From contig CAZGDX010000001.1 in NCBI GenBank assembly GCA_964525225.1, positions 40,654 to 104,653 on the forward strand: a stretch of DNA of 64,000 nucleotides, given 5' to 3'. The notes beneath the pieces were generated by a model. That model was not told where the DNA came from. It made no database searches and saw only the letters and a program-made list of their open reading frames with translations. Position 1 is the stretch's first letter. Each line of letters starts with the position of its first letter. This document shows positions 2,917-59,914 of this stretch, in pieces. Both the position numbers and the translations under genes were made by a program. The stretch comes from an uncultured Gammaproteobacteria bacterium. Its GTDB lineage: Bacteria > Patescibacteriota > Patescibacteriia > DYHP01.

Positions 2917-5400
2917 ATGGTTAGTAAAAAAGATGAAAAAACACCTCCAATGGAAGAAAAAATAAGCGATGCGAAAATTGTTAACCGTTCAATCGTTGAT
3001 GAGATGCAAGATTCCTATTTGGATTACGCAATGTCGGTAATCGTTTCGCGCGCGCTTCCGGATGTTCGCGACGGTTTAAAGCCGGTACACCGGAGAATTC
3101 TTTACGCAATGTGGAATATCGGGTTGAAAGCCGGAGCAAAGTTCAGAAAATCGGCGACTGTCGTCGGTGAAGTTCTTGGAAAATACCATCCTCACGGCGA
3201 TTCCGCGGTATACGAATCAATGGTCAGAATGGCCCAGGATTTTTCTTTGCGCTATCCGCTCGTGAACGGACAAGGAAACTTCGGCAGTTTGGATGGCGAC
3301 TCCGCGGCGGCTATGCGTTATACGGAAGCCAAGCTCACCGGAATCGCGGAAGAAATGCTTTTTGACCTTGAAAAAGATACAGTTGATTTTATTCCGAATT
3401 ATGACGGTTCAACAAAAGAACCGCAGGTCTTGCCGTCAAAACTTCCTAATTTGCTTTTAAACGGCACGATGGGCATTGCGGTCGGCATGGCGACAAATAT
3501 CCCGCCACACAATTTAGGAGAGTTGTGCGATGGCGCGGCGCATCTGATAGAAAATCCTAACGCTTCAATTGACGATTTGATGCAATTTATAAAAGGACCG
3601 GATTTTCCGACTGGCGGCATAATTTATGGGGCAAAAGATATCGCGCAGGCATACGCATGCGGAAAGGGCGGGGTGGTGGTGCGCGCGAAAACGGAAATTT
3701 CCGAAACCAAACAAGGGCATTTTCAGATTATTGTTTCCGAAATTCCTTACGCGGTCAATAAAGCGTCTCTTTTGGAAAAAATTGCCAATTTGGTTAATGA
3801 AAAGAAAATAGAGGGCATCCGCGATTTGCGCGATGAATCCAATAAAGACGGCTTGCGTATTGTTGTTGATTTGAAAAAAGACGCGTATCCGAAAAAAGTT
3901 TTAAACAAACTTTATCTTTCCACGCAGCTTCAAGATACTTTTCATTTCAATACGCTTGCGCTTGTTGACGGAATTCCGCGCATGCTCACGTTGAAAATGA
4001 TGCTTGAAGAATATCTCAAACACAGAGAAGTCGTAATTAAAAGGCGGACTAATTTTGAACTTCAAAAGGCAAAAGACAGAGCGCATATTTTAGAGGGTTT
4101 AAAAATCGCCATTCTTAAAATTGACCAAGTTATCTCTACGATTAAAAAATCCCGCGACAAAGATGAAGCGCGCGTTAATTTGATGAAAAAATTTAAGTTT
4201 TCCGAACCACAAACGCTCGCGATTTTGGAAATGCGCTTGCAGCAGCTTGCCAATATGGAACGCGTAAAAGTTGAGCAGGAATTGAAGGAAAAGAAAGAAC
4301 TGATAAAAGAACTGACTGATATTTTATCATCTCCGAAAAAAATAATGGCAGTGGTAAAAAAAGAAATAGTGGAAATAAAGGAAAAATATGCCGACGAACG
4401 AAGAACGCAAATTATTTCCCACGCGGTAAAAGAATTTTCCGCGGAAGATGTTATTCCGAACGAACCGACAATCATAATGATTACAAATGACGGGTACATA
4501 AAACGTTTGCCGCCGGATACTTTCCGCACTCAAGCGCGCGGAGGCAAAGGTGTTTCCGGACTTGCCATAAAAGAAGAAGACGTTGTTGAAGAAGTGAAGG
4601 CGACTATGACTCACGCCGACTTGCTTTTCTTTACCACTAGAGGGCGGGTATTTGAATTGAAAGCGTATGATGTTCCGGCTGCCTCCAGAATTTCCAAAGG
4701 GCAGGCATTGGTAAACTTTTTACAGCTCGGACCGAATGAAAAGGTCTCGGAAATGCTTTCCATTGAGGACTTGAAAGAATATAAATATTTGGTGATGACT
4801 ACGGCTATGGGCGTTGTGAAGAAAGTTGATATTAACGCTTTTGTAAATGTCCGCCGGTCCGGTCTTATCGCGCTGAAATTGCATGATGAAGATGTTCTTG
4901 GTTGGGTAAAACCGTCAACCGGAAGCGATGAGGTGGTAATTATCACATCGCTCGGTCAATCCATAAAATTTAAAGAAAAAGACGTGAGAGAAATGGGCAG
5001 AAATGCCGCCGGAGTGCGCGGTATCCGTTTGAAAAAGAACGACAAGGTCGTTGGTATGGATATAGTGGACCCGGCGCTCGTAAAAAAAGATGTCTTGGAA
5101 CTTTTCGTGGTAAGCCAGAATGGTTTTGGAAAACGCACGGGTCTTAAAAGTTATAAAACCCAGCATCGCGGCGGTTCAGGAATCAAGACCTCCAAAGTAA
5201 CTCCAAAAACCGGAAAGCTGGTAAGCGGATATATTACCAATTCCGAAGACGAACGCGACGTGATAATAATTTCCGATAAAGGGCAAGTTATTAGAATTCC
5301 GTTTTCAAGCATTTCTGTTATTGGTCGCGCGACCCAGGGTGTCTGTCTGATGAAATTCAAGGCCAAAGGAGATGAAATTGCCAGCGTGACAATCATTTAA
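2917..5400 (+). CDS. gyrA: DNA gyrase subunit A
   Basis: [32 protein letters not shown] active-site region; 827 aa. Confidence 0.95.
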
Positions 5401-6521: not shown

Positions 6522-6645
6522 TTCAAATATCATGCGAATGGTATGCGAATGCCGCGAATAGTGAAATGCGCGAAGCGCGCATGGATAATTTGTGTCATTC
6601 GTATGTATTTGTGTGATATTGGCATCAAACGATGCTAATCGTACT

Positions 6646-7335
6646 ATGAAAGATTTTTCTAATTTGGAAAAAAAATTGGGGGTATCTTTTAAAAATCAAG
6701 ATTTGTTAATTCAGGCGCTTACGCACCGTTCGTATATAAACGAACACCCGTCGTTCCGTCTTGGGCACAATGAACGCCTGGAATTTTTGGGCGACGCGGT
6801 TTTGGAATTGGTGGTGACTGAAAATCTTTATAACAATTATCCGAATCCGGAAGGAGAGCTTACAAATTGGCGCGCCAGTTTGGTAAACGCCATAATGCTG
6901 TCAAAAATTTGTCGGGATATTGAAGTTGAAGAATTTTTATTGCTTTCCAAGGGGGAATCAAAAGACAAGAAAAGCAAAGCGCGGCAGTATATTTTAGCTA
7001 ACGCTTTTGAAGCGATTATTGGCGCTATTTATTTGGACGGCGGATATGAAACCGCCAAAGAATTTATTTTAAAAAACGTGGTAAAAGAACTTCAAAATAT
7101 TTTGGAGAAAAAACTTTACCTAGACCCAAAAAGCAACTTTCAGGAGATGGCGCAGGAGAGAGTCGGCATTACTCCATCTTATCGTGTTTTGGAAGAAACC
7201 GGTCCGGACCATGCTAAAAATTTTAAAGTGGGAGTTTATCTGGAAGACGAGCTTGTCGCCACAGGTGAAGGTTCGTCAAAACAGGAGGCGCAGGTGGAGG
7301 CGGCGACAAAAGCGATTGAGGCAAAACAGTGGTAA
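6646..7335 (+). CDS. rnc: ribonuclease III
   Basis: ALTHRSY...ERLEFLGDAVLELVV RNase III signature plus a C-terminal dsRBD. Start chosen at the internal ATG (MKDFSNLEKKLG) rather than the longer ORF start at 6592. Confidence 0.88.
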   Translation: MKDFSNLEKKLGVSFKNQDLLIQALTHRSYINEHPSFRLGHNERLEFLGDAVLELVVTENLYNNYPNPEGELTNWRASLVNAIMLSKICRDIEVEEFLLLSKGESKDKKSKARQYILANAFEAIIGAIYLDGGYETAKEFILKNVVKELQNILEKKLYLDPKSNFQEMAQERVGITPSYRVLEETGPDHAKNFKVGVYLEDELVATGEGSSKQEAQVEAATKAIEAKQW

Positions 7336-7481
7336 AATAGAATAAAATTCGAAATTTAAATATCGAAATCCGAAACAAATTCAAAATACAAAAATTAAAA
7401 TGTTTTAAACACGTTTTGAATTTTGAAAATTAGATATTGTTTCGTATTTAGGATTTCGCATTTCGAATTTTTTGTTAAACT

Positions 7482-9851: not shown

Positions 9852-9924
9852 GGCCCGGTAGTTAAGTGGCAATAACGCCCGCCTTATAAGTGGGAAGACG
9901 GGGGTTCGAGTCCCTCCCGGGTCA
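9852..9924 (+). tRNA. tRNA with anticodon TAT (AUA-decoding tRNA-Ile2-type), canonical 73-nt cloverleaf
   Basis: Acceptor ggcccgg/ccgggtc, D-arm gtta-agtggcaa-taac, anticodon stem cccgc/gtggg, loop cttataa, T-arm ggggg-ttcgagt-ccctc. Confidence 0.75.
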
Positions 9925-9944
9925 CTAAAGGCAGAAATGTCTTT

Positions 9945-10377: not shown

Positions 10378-12681
10378 ATGAGGCACGAGAACACGGATTT
10401 GAATAACGCGATTTGTTTGGGTGTTTTTGCCGCTGTCGCGACGATTGTTTTTTTCGTGATGTCCGGATGCATTCAGGAGGACCTGCGGCGGACTTGCGAC
10501 GATTCGGATTGTTGCGCCGAGGATTCCGATTGCGATGACGAGCTTGCGTGCACGACCGATTCTTGCGTGCGCGGAGAATGCATGTTTACTGCGGTTGACG
10601 AATTGTGTGCCGATGGCGAGGTTTGCAACCTTGCGAGCGGCTGCGTTACCGAAAATGAGTGCGACGATGACGGAGATTGTGAAGACGCCTTTGATTGTAC
10701 TGGTGATGACTGCATTGGTGGCGTCTGCATTCACGTGGCGGATTCCGACCTCTGCGAAGAGGACGAGGTTTGCAATGAGTCAAGCGGATGTGTCCGCGAG
10801 GCAGAGTGTGTTTTTGACCGCGACTGCGACGAGGAAGGCCCGGATTGCAATGCCGATCGGTGCGCGGACGGAACCTGCGAGCGCGAGCCCAGCGATGGGC
10901 TTTGCGCCGACGGCTATGTCTGTAACGCGAGCGGCATTTGTGTTTTGGGTCATGAAGACGAGTGTGACGACGACGAAGATTGCGAGGATGGTGTGGCTTG
11001 CACCGAAGACGATTGTAGCGTCGGCAGGTGCATTTTCCGTCCTATGGATAATCGCTGCGACTCGTTTGAAGAGTGCGATGTCGAGCTCGGATGCGTTTGG
11101 GAGAGTTGGGTGCAGTGCGAGGTGAGTGGCGAGTGCACGGACGGTGTGGGTTGCACACGCAATATGTGTATTGGCCATCTATGTGTGTTTGAGCCAATGG
11201 ATGAGTCCTGCGGCGAGAACGAGCGTTGCGACACAACGCTCGGATGCATTGCAATGCCGGAGTGCGATGACGATACGGATTGCGATGATGGACAAATTTG
11301 CACGACCGACACTTGCGACGATGGCGAGTGCGCCAATACTCCAGTGAATAGTCGATGCGATGACGGCAATTACTGTTCTGCTGATATCTGTTTGGCTTCT
11401 GGTGAGTGCGTTCATATGCCACTCGATAGCTACTGTGCCGCGGACGGCGAACATTGTTCGCTGGCTGCCGGCGGTTGCGTGGAGTGTACTTCCAACAGCC
11501 ACTGCGCGGATTTTGAGTTTTGCAACGCCGATTACGAGTGCGAGAGCGGATGTGGTTCGTGCGACGATGGTGTTTTTTGCACCAATGATATTTGCACAAT
11601 TTATGGTTGTACTCACACCGCGACAAACTCTCGATGCGGCAGTTCTTTGCCGTATTGCCACTCGACCCGCGGTTGCGTGGAATGCCTCACAGACGCTCAT
11701 TGCGCGAGCAATGAACACTGTGATGGTTATGTCTGCGTGGCAGACGCCGAGTGCGATGCTGATTCTGACTGCGACGATTCCATCGCCTGCACTACCAACG
11801 ATTGCGATACTGCCGGACGTTGTCTTTACACGCCGAACGACGCTTTTTGCGATGATGGCGTGTACTGCACAGTAGACGATTGTTCGCTTGCCGAGCGCGG
11901 TTGTACTCACACCGCGACAAACTCTCGATGCGGCAGTTCTTTGCCGTATTGCCACTCGACCCGCGGTTGCGTGGAATGCCTCACGGATTCTCACTGTGGG
12001 ACGGGCGAGTATTGCAGCAGTTATGTCTGCGTGGTCGATGCCGAGTGTGATTATGATGCCGATTGTTCTGACGGCGTGTACTGTACTGTGGACGACTGCG
12101 CGAGCGGTTTCTGCACGAACACGGCCGACAACACGCGTTGTTCCTATGGTTTGCTTTGCCATTTGACCGCTGGTTGCGTGGAGTGCAGGACAGACGCGGA
12201 TTGTAGTTCTTCCGAGAGCTGCGCCTCGGACCACACTTGTGTATCCGATATCTGCACTTACGATTCTGACTGTTCCGACGACATTGCCTGCACGGTGGAC
12301 GACTGCACGTCGGCTCACGATTGCACGCACACGGCGATGAATTCGCTGTGTCTGTCTGGACAGTATTGCGATCCTCTATACGGATGCCGCACGAGCACTG
12401 GTTCCGATCTGGACTACGATGGCATTCCGGACAGTTCCGATAACTGTCCGACAACGCCAAATCCCGGGCAGGCAGACATGGATTATGACCACATCGGCGA
12501 CGTGTGCGACTGTGATGTGGACGGCGACGGTTCTGTCGCGTTCATCTGTGGTGGCTGGGATTGTAACGACTACAATAACAGCGTGCATCCCGGCGCTTGG
12601 GAGGATTGCGACGACGGCATGGATAATGATTGTGATGACCTGATCGATGGTTACGATGCCGACTGCGGTTGCTGTTCCTGA
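10378..12681 (+). CDS. large secreted/lipoprotein-like Cys- and Asp-rich repeat protein with C-terminal thrombospondin type-3-like Ca-binding repeat and MopE-like (CxDxDxxxxPGAxExCDGxDNDCD) motif
   Basis: Start set at the ATG with AGGAGG at 7-nt spacing. Signal peptide ends in the lipobox-like VMSGC. About 10 repeats of the CxxDxDCxDxxxCTxDxCxxGxC...CxDGxxC pattern. C-terminus: DYDGIPDSSDNCPTTPNPGQADMDYDHIGDVCDCDVDGDG, then CNDYNNSVHPGAWEDCDDGMDNDCDD. GC about 55%. Confidence 0.8.
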   Translation: MRHENTDLNNAICLGVFAAVATIVFFVMSGCIQEDLRRTCDDSDCCAEDSDCDDELACTTDSCVRGECMFTAVDELCADGEVCNLASGCVTENECDDDGDCEDAFDCTGDDCIGGVCIHVADSDLCEEDEVCNESSGCVREAECVFDRDCDEEGPDCNADRCADGTCEREPSDGLCADGYVCNASGICVLGHEDECDDDEDCEDGVACTEDDCSVGRCIFRPMDNRCDSFEECDVELGCVWESWVQCEVSGECTDGVGCTRNMCIGHLCVFEPMDESCGENERCDTTLGCIAMPECDDDTDCDDGQICTTDTCDDGECANTPVNSRCDDGNYCSADICLASGECVHMPLDSYCAADGEHCSLAAGGCVECTSNSHCADFEFCNADYECESGCGSCDDGVFCTNDICTIYGCTHTATNSRCGSSLPYCHSTRGCVECLTDAHCASNEHCDGYVCVADAECDADSDCDDSIACTTNDCDTAGRCLYTPNDAFCDDGVYCTVDDCSLAERGCTHTATNSRCGSSLPYCHSTRGCVECLTDSHCGTGEYCSSYVCVVDAECDYDADCSDGVYCTVDDCASGFCTNTADNTRCSYGLLCHLTAGCVECRTDADCSSSESCASDHTCVSDICTYDSDCSDDIACTVDDCTSAHDCTHTAMNSLCLSGQYCDPLYGCRTSTGSDLDYDGIPDSSDNCPTTPNPGQADMDYDHIGDVCDCDVDGDGSVAFICGGWDCNDYNNSVHPGAWEDCDDGMDNDCDDLIDGYDADCGCCS

Positions 12682-12760: not shown

Positions 12761-12831
12761 TGTCATCCTCGGGGCAGCGAAGCGGATCCCTGGGATCCAC
12801 GTGGATTCCCCGAACAAGTCGGGGAATGACA
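12761..12831. repeat. GTCATCC hairpin element, copy A (about 71 bp, imperfect terminal inverted repeats tgtcatcc.../...ggaatgaca)
   Basis: Shares tgtcatcct.ggggc.gcg.agcggatcc.tgggatccacgtggatt with copy B at 20584 and the opening hairpin with copies at 53593 and 59846. Confidence 0.6.
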
Positions 12832-12993
12832 GAATGGTTTAGGGCGAGGTAATCCTTTATCTCTTTGTTCCTCTTGACATCTTTTTATTTTTTTGTTAAG
12901 ATAATGTGACATCTTTAAAAAACGCCCGAAAATAAAAAAACGGGCAAAAAACCGTCCTACGCTAAAAAGCTGCGGACGGCAAAGGAGGACAAA

Positions 12994-13671
12994 ATGGCAG
13001 GAAGAAGCGCGCTCGTGGCTCTATGTGTTCTTTTCGTTTTTGGTACCATGGGTTCCAGTTGCGCGGTTCAGCCGCCACCGGAGCCGGTGGAGTGCTATTC
13101 GGACAGCGATTGTTATGACGGCGTGAATTGCACTGATGATTATTGCTTCCGCAATTTTTGTGAGAATTACGAGAATGATGAAAATTGTCCGGTAAACGAG
13201 TGGTGCGATATGCGCCGCGGATGTATCAGCAACGATGTCCCGCCCCCTGTTGATTGCCATAGCGATATCGATTGTTTTGATGGAGTTTATTGCACCTGGG
13301 ACCTGTGCGAACAGGGCGAATGCGGAAATTACGACAGCGGAATTTGCGGAGTCGGGTACTATTGCGATTCGCTTTTGGATTGCCAGCCGATCGTCACGGT
13401 TTACGACTCTGATGGTGATGGTATTGAGGATTCTATAGACAACTGTTGGGAATTTTATAACCCGTGGCAGGAAGATATGGATTGGGACGGTTGGGGTGAC
13501 GCTTGCGATTGCGACGCGGATGGCGATTGGTACGACGACGCTGTTTGGTGTGGCGGATTGGATTGCAACGATTACGATTTGTATGTCAACCCCAGCGCTG
13601 TTGAGTGGTGTAACGATTGGATTGACAATGACTGTGATGGGTATATTGATTATTACGATTACTGCTGGTAA
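12994..13671 (+). CDS. smaller secreted paralog of the Cys-rich repeat protein (same repeat type, TSP3-like and MopE-like C-terminal motifs)
   Basis: Signal peptide with a GSSC lipobox-like site. Carries DSDGDGIEDSIDNCWEFYNPWQEDMDWDGWGDACDCDADGD, then CNDYDLYVNPSAVEWCNDWIDNDCDG. Confidence 0.75.
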   Translation: MAGRSALVALCVLFVFGTMGSSCAVQPPPEPVECYSDSDCYDGVNCTDDYCFRNFCENYENDENCPVNEWCDMRRGCISNDVPPPVDCHSDIDCFDGVYCTWDLCEQGECGNYDSGICGVGYYCDSLLDCQPIVTVYDSDGDGIEDSIDNCWEFYNPWQEDMDWDGWGDACDCDADGDWYDDAVWCGGLDCNDYDLYVNPSAVEWCNDWIDNDCDGYIDYYDYCW

Positions 13672-14456: not shown

Positions 14457-14542
14457 GGAACAAAACTCCCACTAATCCATACCACTAATCCGCACTAATT
14501 ATTCGTGAGTATTGGTGGCAGAAATTAGTGGAAGTCTAGTAC
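14457..14542. repeat. 85-bp palindromic intergenic element, copy 1 (between apt and mtnP)
   Basis: Ends aacaaaactcccactaat / attagtggaagtctagtac with a cgcactaattattcgtg core; four further copies in the window. Confidence 0.7.
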
Positions 14543-14556
14543 ATAATTTATAGACT

Positions 14557-18055: not shown

Positions 18056-18062
18056 AAATAAT

Positions 18063-18148
18063 GTACTAGACTTCCACTAATTAATATCACGAATTCGCAC
18101 TAATAATTCGTGCGTATTCGTGGTTTAGATTTGTGGAAGTTTTGTTCC
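18063..18148. repeat. 85-bp palindromic intergenic element, copy 2 (between rny and ymdB)
   Basis: gtactagacttccactaat...cacgaattcgcactaataattcgtgcg...agatttgtggaagttttgttcc. Confidence 0.7.
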
Positions 18149-18157
18149 TTTTATCAC

Positions 18158-20526: not shown

Positions 20527-20583
20527 TTATGTGAGAAAAAAGTTTTAGAATCAGACCCGCTCTTTAGCAGGTCTTTTTTAATT

Positions 20584-20745
20584 TGTCATCCTTGGGGCCG
20601 CGGAGCGGATCCTTGGGATCCACGTGGATTTTTGCCGGCGGACTTTGGGTCACCAGGCACGTCTCCGTATTTACTTTGGGGTGTCGGGCACCTCTCCTTG
20701 GTCTTTGCGGCACACCGCGGACAACGGAGCGGTACCCGACATCAT
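20584..20745. repeat. GTCATCC hairpin element, copy B (longer, about 160 bp, 61% GC)
   Basis: The first 55 bp are near-identical to copy A; the remainder is a unique GC-rich sequence with no obvious ORF. Confidence 0.55.
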
Positions 20746-20815: not shown

Positions 20816-22480
<1,665 letters not shown>

Positions 22481-22485
22481 TTAAT

Positions 22486-22587
22486 GGGTACTAAACTTCC
22501 ACAAATCTATGCCACGAATACGCACGAATTAGAAAATTAATTTATTAGTGCGAATTAGCGATAGAAATTAGTGGGAGTCTAGTTCCT
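22486..22587. repeat. 85-bp palindromic intergenic element, copy 3 (fills the groES-groEL spacer)
   Basis: actaaacttccacaaatctatgccacgaatacgcacgaattag...attagtgcgaattagcgatagaaattagtgggagtctag. Confidence 0.7.
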
Positions 22588-23565: not shown

Positions 23566-24804
23566 TTATGTTTTTGTTTTGTTTGCTAAACAAGATAAAC
23601 CGACAACAAATCCCACCAACATTATACCAGCATAGATGCTTATTGGGTAATGGTCAAAAAGTCCGAGAATTAAAATGGGAGAGAGGAAAATAATTTTTAA
23701 TTTTAAATTATAAATTATAAATAAAATCATCAAAAATAAAAATGCTAAAATGCCAAATTTTGAAATAAAAAGAAGATAAATATTGTGCGTTGGCTGGTAT
23801 GCGAAAGATTTCAGATTTGGGTTAATTTCATTTTTCAGCGCCAGCGTATAATTTCCAGGACCCACGCCGAAAACAGGATGGAGTTTTATGATTTTGAAAG
23901 ATTCGCGGTAGAACTGCATCCGTTCGGCGTTTGATTTTTCTTCAAGCCGTGCGACACCCTCCACGCGAGTTTTTAGCAAAGGAGTGTAAATAAAAGAAAG
24001 AATCAGAGGTATGGTGGCGCAAACAATGGTTATAGACGCGATTTTTTTTAAGTTTGTTTTATTTTTTAAGTTGGCGAGTAAAAAAATCAGCAAGCAAAAA
24101 ATCAGGGCAATCCATGCGGCGCGGGAAAATGTTAAAAATAATGCTGAAGATAAAATTATTATTGCGGGAAATACTAATTTTGATTCTTTGTGGACATATA
24201 AAATTGCTAGAAGAAAAATCGCGATTACTAGATATCCTGCCAAAATGTTTGGATGAGGAAGCGCGCCATAAGCTCTTAGCCAGCGTCCGCTTCCTGTTTC
24301 AACGACCGATGCCCCAAGGATTGACGCGTTTTGCAAAGCCATTCCGAGCCATTTTGAAGAAAATGATGTTTGAGTAAAAAATTGCCAAAACGCGACAGAT
24401 GCCTGAATCAGCATACCGCCAGAAAATGCGTAAATTATTTTTTTAAAATTCGCCAGTTTGTAAATTAAAAATGCCAGAATTCCTCCTTCGGCGATTTTCA
24501 GAAGCGTATAAAACGCCAGCGCCGGATTAAACGCCAAAACAGCGGATATGAACGAAAAAATTAAAAATAAAAAAATCAGTATTTTAAATCGTAAATCGTA
24601 AATCGTAAATCGTAAATTTTCATTCTTAATCAGATAAAACAAACTTATCAAGGTTATCGTCCATAAGATTATCTCTGTCCCATAAAGCGAATAAGTATTA
24701 TATTCGGAATAGCCGTTCAAATTTCCGGCTTTAATAATCCACCGCGTTTGCCACGGCAATAAAAAGACAAGAAGATAAATCCCGTATTCTAAAATTTTCT
24801 TCAT
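23566..24804 (-). CDS. O-antigen ligase-like (Wzy_C family) polytopic membrane protein
   Basis: 12 predicted TM helices; the SRAAWIAL segment is typical of WaaL/O-antigen ligase loops. Contains an (acgattt)x4 repeat. Confidence 0.7.
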   Translation of the reverse strand: MKKILEYGIYLLVFLLPWQTRWIIKAGNLNGYSEYNTYSLYGTEIILWTITLISLFYLIKNENLRFTIYDLRFKILIFLFLIFSFISAVLAFNPALAFYTLLKIAEGGILAFLIYKLANFKKIIYAFSGGMLIQASVAFWQFFTQTSFSSKWLGMALQNASILGASVVETGSGRWLRAYGALPHPNILAGYLVIAIFLLAILYVHKESKLVFPAIIILSSALFLTFSRAAWIALIFCLLIFLLANLKNKTNLKKIASITIVCATIPLILSFIYTPLLKTRVEGVARLEEKSNAERMQFYRESFKIIKLHPVFGVGPGNYTLALKNEINPNLKSFAYQPTHNIYLLFISKFGILAFLFLMILFIIYNLKLKIIFLSPILILGLFDHYPISIYAGIMLVGFVVGLSCLANKTKT

Positions 24805-28197: not shown

Positions 28198-28284
28198 GGG
28201 ATACAACTTCCACTAATTTTTTTCACCAATAAGCACGAATAATTAGTGCGGATTAGTGATATAGATTTGTGGGAGTCTTGTTCC
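28198..28284. repeat. 85-bp palindromic intergenic element, copy 4 (12 bp upstream of nusA start)
   Basis: gatacaacttccactaat...cacgaataattagtgcggattagtg...agatttgtgggagtcttgttcc. Confidence 0.7.
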
Positions 28285-28449
28285 TTTTTAATTAGTGCTT
28301 AATAAAAATGACCAGTCCGCAGAGACCAGTCCTTATGTTTTTATAATACTATAAATTGAAATAAATGTCAAGCGATTGACAAAAGTTGAGTTTTTTGATA
28401 AGTTGATTTAATGTTCGTTAAAATAAAAAAAAGAAAGAAGGGAAAGAAA

Positions 28450-30898: not shown

Positions 30899-30985
30899 TT
30901 GTACAAAACTTCCACAAATCTATGCCACTAATCCGCACTAATTATTCGTGAGTATTTGTGATAAAAATTAGTGGAAGTCTATTTC
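30899..30985. repeat. 85-bp palindromic intergenic element, copy 5 (10 bp upstream of methyltransferase start)
   Basis: gtacaaaacttccacaaatctatgccactaatccgcactaattattcgtgagtatttgtgataaaaattagtggaagtctatttc. Confidence 0.7.
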
Positions 30986-36874: not shown

Positions 36875-36989
36875 CTTATAAGGTACAAAACCTCCACAGA
36901 TTTCTATCACAGATTTTCACAGATAAAAAAATTAATCTGTGCGTATCTGTGAAAAATATCTGCGGTGGTCTGGTACCGATAAAACGTTT

Positions 36990-49249: not shown

Positions 49250-49800
49250 TCCTTGAAATAAGAAAACCGGATAGCTGCCCCACACCTTTTGGCTTTTATT
49301 ATTTAAGTTTCGTCTATGTTCTATGTTTATATCTTAAAAAGCATGCAAAGGCCCTAGTCCAATTAAAGAGAAGAATAAGATGGTCGCTAGATGAAAGCTA
49401 AAAGGTGTGGGGAGGAAAGTCCGAACACCATTCTTCGCAGCAATGCGGGGCTTAGAGGTAGTCGCTAACGGCGACGGGGAGTAAATAATTTTGTTTTATC
49501 GCGGATTTGCGTTTATAGCGCAAACAAGCGAATGCAGTTTTAAGAAGCCCACGGATAGTGTCTTGAAAAAGGTTTGTTTTTCTTGTAGTAATATAAGAAA
49601 GATAAGCAACAGAAAATATACCGCCGAATTCCCGATTTTTCGGGAATGGCAAGGTTGAAATCGTGAGGTAAGAGCTCACGCGTAACCGCAGCGATGCGGC
49701 ATGTGGCAAACACCTACCCGGTGCAAGGTTTAAAAACCGCTTGAGCTTTATAGAAATATAAAGCCCAGAGAAATAGCTATCCACCCCTCACACGGAAAGC
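49250..49800 (+). ncRNA. rnpB: RNase P RNA (bacterial type), with an unusually long insertion in the P3 region
   Basis: Universally conserved GGAGGAAAGUCCG (P4 5' strand), ACAGAAAAUAUACCGCC, GGUAAGAGCUCACG and CACCUACCCGGUGCAAGG blocks in the canonical order. P1 candidate pairing ggatagct(49282)/agctatcc(49778). Ends are approximate. Confidence 0.75.
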
Positions 49801-50138
49801 GATTGTGTGCAACGCTTGATATTATTGGCGATATTTTAAAATGTCACTTAGAAATATTAAATGTTCAAATTATTGCATACTTTCGTTTTTTCGCTTTCCG
49901 TGTGAAGGGGGACAGAATTCGGCTTATAGGTTATCTTATATTTAAGGAACAAAAATACGCTTGAGTACTCAAGCGTATTTTTGTTTGAACACCAACTGTG
50001 TACAATTCCAATTGACACAAGTCCAAAAAAATGGTATAATATATGTGTAAGCTCGAAAAGGGTTTACTAAAACAAAAAAATAGAAATGCCCCAATTTAAT
50101 CCGCGTATAGGCGTGGAACATCTGTGGCAAAAACAAAA

Positions 50139-59750: not shown

Positions 59751-59845
59751 AATTGAGCCCCGAAATTAAGTCGGGGCTTTTATTTTTTAAGCAAAATGTT
59801 ATACTATTATAAAGATGAATGAACTCATATTGAGTTCCTATTTTA

Positions 59846-59914
59846 TGTCATTCCGAGCCACAGCGAGGAATCTCACCCCGAGGTATGAGATCCTTCACTT
59901 CGTTCAGGATGACG
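59846..59914. repeat. GTCATCC hairpin element, copy D (terminal inverted repeats tgtcattccgagc / gttcaggatgacg)
   Basis: The reverse complement reads gtcatcctgaacgaagtgaaggatctc; it ends 17 bp before the aspS start. Confidence 0.55.

What the first reader, a model, noticed from the sequence alone, without database searches (positions are those of the whole stretch)
14457..14542. Five-copy family of ~85-bp palindromic intergenic elements, each ending 10-15 bp from a start codon
Copies at 14457-14542, 18063-18148, 22486-22587, 28198-28284 and 30899-30985 are 80-90% identical. All have terminal inverted repeats (a)ACTTCCAC(T/A)AAT...ATT(A/T)GTGGAAGT and an internal CGCACTAATTATTCGTG-like core, so each is a long imperfect palindrome. 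In every case the element occupies a same-strand spacer and stops 10-15 bp before an ATG (mtnP, ymdB, groEL, nusA, SAM-methyltransferase), and those starts lack a Shine-Dalgarno. The start-proximal end supplies a TAGTAC/TACATAAT -10-like box. Copy 3 fills the groES-groEL spacer, where there is no CIRCE element. Five copies in 64 kb is a very high density for a small genome. Candidate roles are a REP/MITE-like mobile palindrome, a processing/stability hairpin in polycistronic mRNA, or a portable promoter/operator module.
Basis: seen in the sequence. Interest (0 to 1): 0.66.

Follow-up and report, generated by a model that had tools for sequence, protein, structure and literature searches.

The report
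Mobile hairpin repeats at gene junctions
A small-genome Patescibacteria (CPR) bacterium carries a family of 81-94-bp hairpin-forming repeats that fill the gap between one gene's stop codon and the next gene's start codon; they behave like a previously undescribed miniature mobile element, not like a promoter or operator.

Summary
Five copies sit at the stated coordinates, against 0 expected by chance. A sixth, divergent copy lies at 36885-36974 in the rpsF-ssb spacer. Each copy is an interrupted palindrome, and each arm carries three phased CACNAAT units. The copies end 9-18 nt before SD-less ATGs.

Relatives decide the interpretation. At the groES-groEL junction, four lineages with about 94% GroEL identity show three different states. 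One has family A (this window), two have an unrelated palindrome family B, and one has no spacer at all (TAAtATG). An 80% relative with conserved synteny has abutting genes at three of the sites. So these are recent, lineage-specific insertions into operon junctions and 5' leaders. They belong to a wider class of unit-repeat palindromes in this genus.

Family B is 89.5% identical between two species whose neighbouring 4-fold sites are 54% identical. It has matching 7-nt indels, one on each arm. The interior of family A occurs in two inverted forms (flip/flop) inside flanks that keep one orientation.

No -35/-10 pair, terminator, CIRCE or Rfam match was found. Copy 4 lies downstream of a canonical promoter. 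No cognate transposase was found. A RAYT-like gene just outside the window carries a different REP.

Best reading: a MITE/REPIN-like mobile palindrome, co-transcribed as an mRNA hairpin. Its function and its mobiliser are untested.

The parts
14460..14540 (+). Family A copy 1 (hpt->mtnP junction). The spacer is 14457-14556 and the interior is in 'forward' polarity.
   Evidence: CM R1 gives 99.8 bits. Sequence. In relative L013 the same two genes are 1 nt apart.
18065..18145 (-). Family A copy 2 (rny->ymdB junction). The spacer is 18056-18157 and the interior is forward.
   Evidence: 106 bits. L013 has a 5-nt spacer here and L011 has a family B element.
22490..22583 (-). Family A copy 3 (groES->groEL junction). 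The spacer is 22472-22587. It has a 13-nt central insertion and its interior is flipped.
   Evidence: 90.4 bits on the + strand against 68.4 on the - strand. The site is empty in L015/16/17 and L013, and holds family B in L011/L012/L030.
28201..28281 (-). Family A copy 4, in the nusA 5' leader, 14 nt before the ATG. Interior forward.
   Evidence: 98.1 bits. The promoter at 28371-28343 lies upstream. L011 has a heptamer array at this position.
30903..30983 (-). Family A copy 5 (85-aa ORF -> UbiE-type methyltransferase junction). Interior flipped.
   Evidence: 104.2 bits on + against 71.2 on -. L011 has an unrelated AT-rich spacer here.
36885..36974 (+). Variant copy 6 (rpsF->ssb junction). It has the same geometry and ends, but all six units are CACAGAT/ATCTGTG.
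   Evidence: 56 bits. Fold -41 kcal/mol, z -7.6. The junction is only 21-22 nt in L019/L022/L023 and holds a third family in L021.
7336..7481 (+). Family B palindrome (rnc -> pilB-like ATPase junction). It is the only window copy of the family that is expanded in the sister species.
   Evidence: the repeat finder I7. BLAST matches to L011 2098-2200, 9892-10000, 15037-15168, L019 and L030.
28343..28371 (-). Canonical promoter-like site TTGACA-17-TATTAT upstream of copy 4. It places that copy inside the nusA leader.
   Evidence: 11 of 12 matches.
6646..7335 (+). RNase III gene. It is a candidate processing enzyme for the long interrupted hairpins; this link is inferred only.
   Evidence: Pfam Ribonucleas_3_3 1e-41 plus dsrm.

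Best explanation
Family A is a lineage-specific, non-autonomous mobile palindromic repeat. It resembles a MITE or REPIN in behaviour but does not belong to any described family. It is one member of a wider class of 'unit-repeat' palindromes: three or more phased short units on one arm and their inverted copies on the other. This class has colonised stop-start junctions and 5' leaders in this Patescibacteria genus.

Shown here:
- The copies are paralogous.
- The same junctions are empty, or hold other families, in relatives with about 94% and 80% GroEL identity.
- Different species have expanded different families.
- Family sequence is held far above the neutral level across species, and palindromic symmetry is maintained by two-sided changes.
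- The interior flips between the 12-bp terminal inverted repeats, while a few outer positions keep one orientation relative to the gene.

Inferred:
- The element is co-transcribed with its flanking genes, because no terminator or promoter is predicted in the spacers.
- It folds into a roughly 35-bp hairpin interrupted by 5x5 and 3x3 internal loops.
- That fold leaves the 9-18-nt A/U-rich, SD-less start region unpaired, so insertion does not disturb the SD-independent initiation these genes already use. This would explain why it is tolerated exactly there.
- The hairpin is a plausible RNase III substrate, so it may split or stabilise operon transcripts, as Correia elements do.

The mobilising enzyme is unknown.
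For: Five copies against 0 expected. Copies score 90-106 bits with CM R1, and c6 scores 56 bits.

The groES-groEL junction reads 'gaaTAAtATG' in L015/16/17 (GroEL 93.6%). It holds family B in L011/L012 (93.8%) and L030 (93.8%), and family A in the window. It reads 'TAAacttATG' in L013 (80%) and holds an A-like element in L018 (80.5%). In L013, rny-ymdB is 5 nt and hpt-mtnP is 1 nt. The rpsF-ssb junction is 21-22 nt in three relatives, holds c6 in the window and holds a third family in L021.

Family A is absent from 38 kb of the sister species, which has 4 family B copies. The window has one family B copy.

The L011 and L030 family B cores are 89.5% identical, against 53.6% at 222 4-fold sites of the adjacent groEL. 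They differ by one 7-nt unit indel in each arm.

Palindrome register: 87% paired, and 7 pairs changed on both sides. Flip/flop: positions 14-37 invert in c3 and c5, while positions 0 and 9 stay fixed relative to the gene. CM strand scores agree.

No promoter or terminator is predicted in the five junction spacers. The starts lack an SD. The tail and AUG are unpaired in the folds. The sequence is identical in three independent assemblies, so it is not an assembly artefact. CACTAAT occurs 16 times in intergenic DNA and once in coding DNA.
Against: No transposase with matching ends was found in about 76 kb of this genome. No unambiguous target-site duplication can be read in the AT-rich flanks. 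The exact-pattern scans of the genome and metagenome collections found no further true members, so the total copy number and host range are unknown. All six copies cluster within 22.5 kb, which would also fit local gene conversion or duplication. The outer ends point the same way relative to the gene in 6 of 6 copies, which a purely neutral insertion model does not predict. The high cross-species conservation of family B could equally reflect host function.
Confidence: 0.6

Rival explanations
1. Host-selected cis-acting RNA hairpin. The elements, whatever their origin, are kept because they act in polycistronic mRNA. They could be RNase III or RNase Y processing sites, or stabilisers that uncouple the levels of neighbouring genes. 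They could also be a bridge that brings the upstream stop codon (3-12 nt from the 5' base) next to the downstream AUG (9-18 nt from the 3' base) for re-initiation.
For: The hairpins are stable (-23 to -41 kcal/mol, z -2.9 to -7.6). Their 12 + 8 + about 7 bp stems with conserved internal loops resemble phage T7-type RNase III sites (my own knowledge). The genes rnc, rny and S1 are present. Nearly all 50-150-nt co-directional spacers in the window are a hairpin followed by a short A/U tail and an SD-less ATG. Family B is conserved well above neutral and has compensating indels. The outer ends have a fixed orientation relative to the gene in 6 of 6 copies.
Against: Close relatives express the same essential genes with abutting or 1-5-nt junctions, so the hairpin is dispensable. 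The strand that folds better (more G.U pairs) follows the polarity of the element, not the mRNA strand: the antisense strand is better in c1, c2, c4, c6 and L018. Family B inserts as a whole in either orientation. No Rfam family matches.
Confidence: 0.25
2. Portable promoter for leaderless or short-leader mRNAs. The start-proximal end would supply a -10 box a few nucleotides before the ATG.
For: The genome does appear to use TATAAT boxes 6-9 nt before some ATGs, for example at ATG 31248(-), 54827(-) and 56401(+). The tails contain TAnnnT/TATAAA-like hexamers.
Against: No -35 partner or TG extension lies at the right spacing in any copy (and direct reading). The hexamer-to-ATG spacing ranges from 1 to 9 nt. 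Copy 4 already has a strong promoter upstream. Matches of this kind are expected in AT-rich sequence (the scan found 49 sites against a mean of 34 in shuffles).
Confidence: 0.07
3. Operator or iteron array. The six phased CACNAAT units (spacing 13 and 10 bp) would be binding sites for a dimeric or oligomeric DNA-binding protein that co-regulates the flanked genes.
For: The units are phased at about one helical turn, are arranged symmetrically, and are almost exclusive to intergenic DNA (16 against 1).
Against: The sites are absent from orthologous junctions in relatives. Coexisting families use quite different units (CACAGAT, ATCCGAAA, ACGGAT), which would need many regulators in a small genome. 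The variable fourth base of each unit is usually mismatched between the arms. The flanked genes (mtnP, ymdB, groEL, nusA, a methyltransferase, ssb) are functionally unrelated.
Confidence: 0.05
4. In-situ origin. Each spacer would have grown locally by slippage of short tandem units followed by inverted duplication, without any transposition.
For: Unit-number changes do occur (7-nt indels). Simple heptamer arrays are common in the spacers and even occur inside an ORF.
Against: This cannot explain five unlinked copies that share the same irregular internal loops, loop sequence and ends at 81-90% identity.
Confidence: 0.03

Closest known systems
Correia repeat-enclosed elements (CREE/NEMIS) of Neisseria (PMC2649163; reviews PMC2229807, PMC10969869)
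   Same: Both are 100-150-bp non-autonomous palindromic repeats. Both lie in intergenic DNA next to genes, are co-transcribed and fold into long hairpins. Both vary in presence or absence between strains.
   Different: There is no sequence similarity. Family A has no readable TA duplication and no -35/-10 created at its ends. Its arms are built from three phased 7-mers. It sits precisely between stop and start codons of operon genes. No IHF-type site was identified. RNase III cleavage is untested.
REPINs/BIMEs mobilised by RAYT tyrosine transposases (PMC3116915, PMC3337134, PMC3733652)
   Same: Both have two similar but non-identical inverted arms around a short spacer, giving an imperfect hairpin of 70-110 nt. 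Both show sequence populations conserved across species far longer than neutral DNA. A RAYT-like ORF exists in this genome.
   Different: Family A has no GTAG or CGTC tag. The arms are not themselves palindromes. The RAYT-like ORF is flanked and interrupted by a different, GC-rich GTAG REP that has no copy in the window. REPINs favour gene 3' ends, whereas these elements abut start codons.
Flip/flop terminal palindromes of parvoviruses and poxviruses (my own knowledge)
   Same: An imperfect palindrome exists in two forms that are inverted complements of each other, inside constant flanks.
   Different: Here the palindromes are internal chromosomal repeats, not replicon ends. The flip is more likely recombination or template switching between the 12-bp inverted repeats than hairpin-transfer replication.
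Repetitive hairpin-forming elements of sponge and fungal mitochondrial genomes (PMC2800124)
   Same: Both involve repeated invasion of the few intergenic gaps of a compact genome by diverse hairpin-forming repeats with no recognisable transposase.
   Different: The hosts, sequences and GC content differ, and those elements have no link to start codons.

Membership tests
MITE (miniature inverted-repeat transposable element) | Short (<300 bp), non-coding and multi-copy within a genome | tested here: met
   There are 5 copies of 81-94 bp plus one variant in 64 kb.
MITE (miniature inverted-repeat transposable element) | Terminal inverted repeats | tested here: met
   ACTTCCACWAAT / ATTWGTGGAAGT in all copies. 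87% of cells pair over the whole length.
MITE (miniature inverted-repeat transposable element) | Target-site duplication flanking each copy | tested here: inconclusive
   TA dinucleotides can be placed on both sides of every copy, but that is expected in AT-rich flanks. GAAC/GTAC at the ends is not a direct repeat. Filled sites cannot be aligned base for base with empty sites.
MITE (miniature inverted-repeat transposable element) | Insertion polymorphism between related genomes | tested here: met
   Orthologous junctions are empty, family A or family B in lineages with 93-95% GroEL identity.
MITE (miniature inverted-repeat transposable element) | An autonomous IS in the genome with the same terminal repeats | tested here: not met
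   No transposase lies in the window. The only candidate nearby is a RAYT-like ORF with unrelated repeats. Only about 76 kb of the genome could be examined.
REP / REPIN-RAYT system | GTAG or CGTC tetranucleotide tag at one end of each REP (PMC3733652) | tested here: not met
   The ends read GGWAC-WARAC-TYCCAC. No GTAG or CGTC is present.
REP / REPIN-RAYT system | Each REP is itself a 20-40-bp palindrome, and two inverted REPs form the REPIN | tested here: not met
   Each arm is three direct CACNAAT units and folds only with the opposite arm.
REP / REPIN-RAYT system | A single-copy RAYT gene flanked by the same repeats | tested here: not met
   The RAYT-like ORF (Y1_Tnp 27 bits; NF047646 61.7 bits, below its cut-off of 80) is flanked by GTAGGGGACGCAGATCTGCGTCCCCTAC. 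That sequence has 0 copies in the window with up to 3 mismatches.
Correia element (CREE) | Promoter hexamers generated at the element ends | tested here: not met
   No -35/-10 pair lies within or at the ends of any copy.
Correia element (CREE) | Hairpin in the transcript bound or cleaved by RNase III | not testable with these tools
   A hairpin is predicted and an rnc gene is present, but no RNA data are available.
Rho-independent terminator | GC-rich stem followed directly by a U-tract | tested here: not met
   None of the five spacers is listed among the terminator-like sites. Canonical terminators exist elsewhere in the window.
CIRCE/HrcA operator | TTAGCACTC-N9-GAGTGCTAA | tested here: not met
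   0 matches with up to 3 mismatches.
TIGR (tandem interspaced guide RNA) stem-loop array (10.64898/2026.09.09.750476) | Tandem array of units with box C/D motifs next to a Tas (Nop-domain) gene | tested here: not met
   The copies are solitary. They contain no RUGAUGA/CUGA boxes (direct reading). No Nop-domain protein was found among the window proteins scanned.
Any Rfam family | Match at or near the gathering score | tested here: not met
   Nothing reaches gathering score. Only sub-threshold generic hairpin (miRNA-precursor) matches appear at E 0.4-0.7.

The most novel reading that the evidence does not exclude
These elements could be a previously unrecognised kind of mobile 'junction cassette' specific to CPR bacteria. 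Each would be an oriented unit made of an interrupted hairpin plus an A/U-rich tail. It would insert between a stop and a start codon or just before a start codon. It would replace translational coupling or the native leader with its own SD-independent initiation context. It would be maintained by sequence-specific recognition, since family sequence is conserved at about 90% where neutral sites are saturated, by an unknown enzyme that is not a classical transposase. The hairpin intermediates of that enzyme would also produce the flip/flop isomers.
Probability: 0.15. Interest if true: 0.8.

Novelty: new variant of a known kind. Interest (0 to 1): 0.55.

Why it matters
CPR/Patescibacteria genomes are about 1 Mb and tightly packed, and they are usually described as poor in repeats. 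My searches of the paper library found no account of MITE- or REP-like elements in them.

Here several families of hairpin repeats turn over quickly at the junctions of essential operons: groES-groEL, rpsF-ssb-rpsR, rny-ymdB and the nusA leader. That makes them useful strain and species markers. It also makes them a likely cause of operon-junction differences in MAG comparisons.

They are also a natural experiment. They show how SD-less, possibly leaderless-capable translation tolerates 100 nt of structured RNA placed immediately before a start codon. If the hairpins are RNase III or RNase Y sites, they would be a mobile source of operon mRNA processing sites in an uncultivated phylum.

Tried and rejected
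1. Exact-pattern scans of the genome and metagenome collections gave 3 and 4 stretches. All were unrelated palindromes or coding sequence on inspection.
2. I tested for RNA-level selection by comparing sense and antisense folding and G.U counts. The asymmetry follows element polarity, not the gene strand. It therefore gives no support for a sense-RNA function.
3. I considered the SD-like AAGGA at the gene-distal base as half of a split ribosome-binding site brought to the AUG by the hairpin. I rejected this. In c3, c4 and c6 it is paired within the stem. The spacing to the AUG would be 11-21 nt. It is absent from family B and the other families.
4. Promoter: no -35/-10 pair was found.
5. Terminator: no U-tract and no listing in the scan.
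6. CIRCE: absent.
7. Integron attC: the RYYYAAC/GTTRRRY ends are absent, and the flanked genes are syntenic housekeeping genes.
8. TIGR array: the copies are solitary, with no box C/D and no Tas gene.
9. The RAYT-like ORF as mobiliser: its REP is different.
10. Target-site duplication: it could not be resolved.
11. Walking further along the genome was limited by the look-up cap. Only 12.5 kb beyond the window was obtained, and it held no extra copies.

Full report
**Observation**

A pattern built from the terminal repeats (ACTTCCACNAAT-N40-68-ATTNGTGGRAGT) matches exactly these five sites, with none expected in 100 shuffles. The repeat finder groups them independently.

A covariance model built from them gives boundaries 14460-14540, 18065-18145, 22490-22583, 28201-28281 and 30903-30983, scoring 90-106 bits. 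It also recovers a sixth, divergent copy at 36885-36974 (56 bits) in the rpsF-ssb spacer.

Each copy has a 12-bp outer stem, a 5x5 internal loop, an 8-bp stem, a 3x3 loop, a short inner stem and an AT-rich centre. Each arm carries three CACNAAT units spaced 13 and 10 nt apart. Across the six copies 87% of cells form pairs, against 28-44% when the register is slid. Copy 6 has CACAGAT in all six units, which gives most of the seven two-sided changes.

The RNA folds reach -23 to -41 kcal/mol with z scores of -2.9 to -7.6. The sequence is identical in three independent assemblies, so it is not an assembly artefact.

**Context**

GroEL places the organism in Patescibacteria.

Four family A copies, and copy 6, fill co-directional stop-to-start spacers of 100-116 nt. 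The core begins 3-12 nt after the stop codon and ends 9-18 nt before the ATG. Copy 4 is different. It lies in a divergent region, downstream of a TTGACA-17-TATTAT site and a conserved attenuator-like hairpin. That puts it in the nusA 5' leader.

None of the downstream starts has a Shine-Dalgarno sequence, whereas genes with long leaders in the window have strong ones. No promoter pair, terminator, CIRCE site or Rfam family coincides with the elements.

Family A is not alone. Nearly every 50-150-nt co-directional spacer in the window is a significant hairpin or heptamer array, followed by a short A/U tail and an SD-less ATG.

**Relatives**

This comparison is the decisive evidence. At the groES-groEL junction, four lineages are roughly equidistant at 93-95% GroEL identity, and they show three states:
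- Family A in the window.
- An unrelated palindrome, family B (units ATCCGAAA/TTCGAAAT), in L011/L012 and L030.
- No spacer at all ('gaaTAAtATG') in L015/L016/L017.

In the 80% outgroup pair, L013 has 'TAAacttATG' and L018 has a divergent A-like element (36 bits).

L013 keeps the gene order but has 5 nt between rny and ymdB and 1 nt between hpt and mtnP. The rpsF-ssb junction is 21-22 nt in three relatives, holds copy 6 in the window, and holds a third family (ACGGAT units) in L021. The neighbouring ssb-rpsR junction is 13 nt in the window but holds a 107-nt or 156-nt palindrome in two relatives.

The sister species has four family B copies and no family A in 38 kb. The window has one family B copy, at 7336-7481.

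So these elements are recent, lineage-specific arrivals at operon junctions. They are dispensable for expression of the flanked essential genes, and different families have expanded in different species.

**Constraint**

The family B copies at groES-groEL in L011 and L030 are 89.5% identical in aligned columns. The 222 four-fold sites of the adjacent groEL are only 53.6% identical, which is saturated. The two copies differ by one 7-nt unit indel in each arm, so the symmetry is preserved. Either an orthologous copy is under strong constraint, or both are young copies of a family whose master sequence is constrained. In both cases the primary sequence matters, not only the fold. That points to recognition by a protein, either a mobilising enzyme or a host factor.

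**Polarity**

Aligning the five family A copies in their better mutual orientation raises mean column identity from 67% to 80%. Copies 1, 2 and 4 then face one way relative to the downstream gene, and copies 3 and 5 the other.

A site-by-site table refines this. Positions 14-37 of the arms invert together. The outermost asymmetries stay fixed relative to the gene: GGAAC on the gene-distal side against GTAC on the proximal side in all copies, and ACTCCCAC on the distal side in three.

I read this as flip/flop of the interior between the 12-bp terminal inverted repeats. It could arise by recombination, by template switching, or by gene conversion in the inverted register. Under this reading the whole unit has one orientation relative to genes in 6 of 6 copies, which is suggestive only given the small sample. 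Family B, in contrast, is inverted as a whole between L011 copies.

The strand that folds better as RNA follows the interior polarity, not the gene strand. There is therefore no sign of selection for sense-strand G.U pairs.

**Mobiliser**

No transposase was found among 40 window proteins scanned against Pfam, nor in the annotated homologous regions. About 315 nt beyond the left end of the window lies a RAYT-like ORF. It has HUH and catalytic-Tyr motifs, scores 27 bits for Y1_Tnp and scores 61.7 bits for NF047646, below that model's cut-off. It lacks a proper start codon.

It is flanked and interrupted by a classic GTAG-tagged GC-rich REP, which has no copy in the window. It is therefore not the evident partner of family A.

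**Mechanism**

The best-supported account is a non-autonomous mobile palindrome (confidence 0.6). It enters the very short stop-start junctions and leaders of a compact genome. It is co-transcribed and folds on itself. Because it leaves the A/U-rich start region single-stranded, it is tolerated by genes that already initiate without an SD.

The effects on mRNA processing or stability through RNase III (6646-7335) or RNase Y are inferred by analogy with Correia elements (PMC2649163) and are untested.

The rivals are:
- A host-selected RNA element (0.25). This is compatible with a mobile origin.
- A promoter for leaderless mRNAs (0.07).
- An operator array (0.05).
- Purely local origin (0.03).

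**Comparison and novelty**

In behaviour the elements resemble MITEs, Correia elements and REPINs. They fail the defining tests for REP/REPIN: no GTAG tag, arms that are not palindromes themselves, and a RAYT with other repeats. They lack the Correia promoter ends. MITE membership is incomplete because no target duplication and no matching IS were found.

My literature searches found no description of such repeats in CPR bacteria.

I rate this a new variant of a known kind and of moderate interest. It is a clear, well-supported case of hairpin repeats colonising operon junctions in a phylum thought to be repeat-poor. Several features remain unexplained: the phased units, the flip/flop interior, the fixed outer orientation, the cross-species sequence conservation and the unknown mobiliser.

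Noticed in passing
L028 11880-12400 (same genome, about 315-830 nt beyond window position 1): A RAYT-like tyrosine transposase ORF with HUH and Tyr motifs. It lacks a proper start codon and may be frameshifted. The GTAG REP GTAGGGGACGCAGATCTGCGTCCCCTAC occurs once upstream of it and once in frame inside it.
   Followed up: partly
window 31248(-), 54827(-), 56401(+), 35610(-) start codons: TATAAT-like boxes, with a -35 or a TG extension, lie only 6-9 nt before the ATG (for example tgcTATAATgtgaatatATG). This suggests the organism makes leaderless mRNAs for some genes.
   Followed up: no
window 28310-28331 (-); L011 about 3515-3545: A hairpin in the nusA leader, GACTGGTC-N5-GGACTGGTC, pairs only through G.U and is followed by a T-run. 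It is conserved in the sister species and looks like an attenuator.
   Followed up: no
window 6522-6645: The nusB-rnc spacer folds at -51.8 kcal/mol (z about -10), the strongest hairpin in the window. It lies immediately upstream of the RNase III gene, so it could be an autoregulatory site.
   Followed up: no
window 24576-24625: A heptamer array, (ATTTACG)x4 on the gene strand, lies in frame inside the 412-aa Wzy_C-family ORF. This region does not align with the sister species.
   Followed up: partly
window 12761-12833, 20563-20630, about 59840-59910; L011 5061-5197, 11657-11916: A separate GC-rich repeat family (GTCATCC...GGAATGACA) lies in gene 3' or convergent regions. It is shared with the sister species at about 90% identity.
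   Followed up: no
window 49367-49942: The RNase P RNA is 576 nt long against a 367-position model, so it carries large insertions.
   Followed up: no
window 10378-12681 and 12994-13671: These are Cys/Asp-rich repeat proteins with MopE/TSP3-like motifs. Their internal DNA repeats of about 300 bp are 92-94% identical.
   Followed up: no
L021 3396-3551; L019 10487-10593: The ssb-rpsR junction is 13 nt in the window. In relatives it carries a 156-nt GC-rich palindrome (L021) or a 107-nt heptamer palindrome (L019).
   Followed up: partly
window 9852-9925: ARAGORN reports a tRNA-Ile with anticodon TAT.
   Followed up: no
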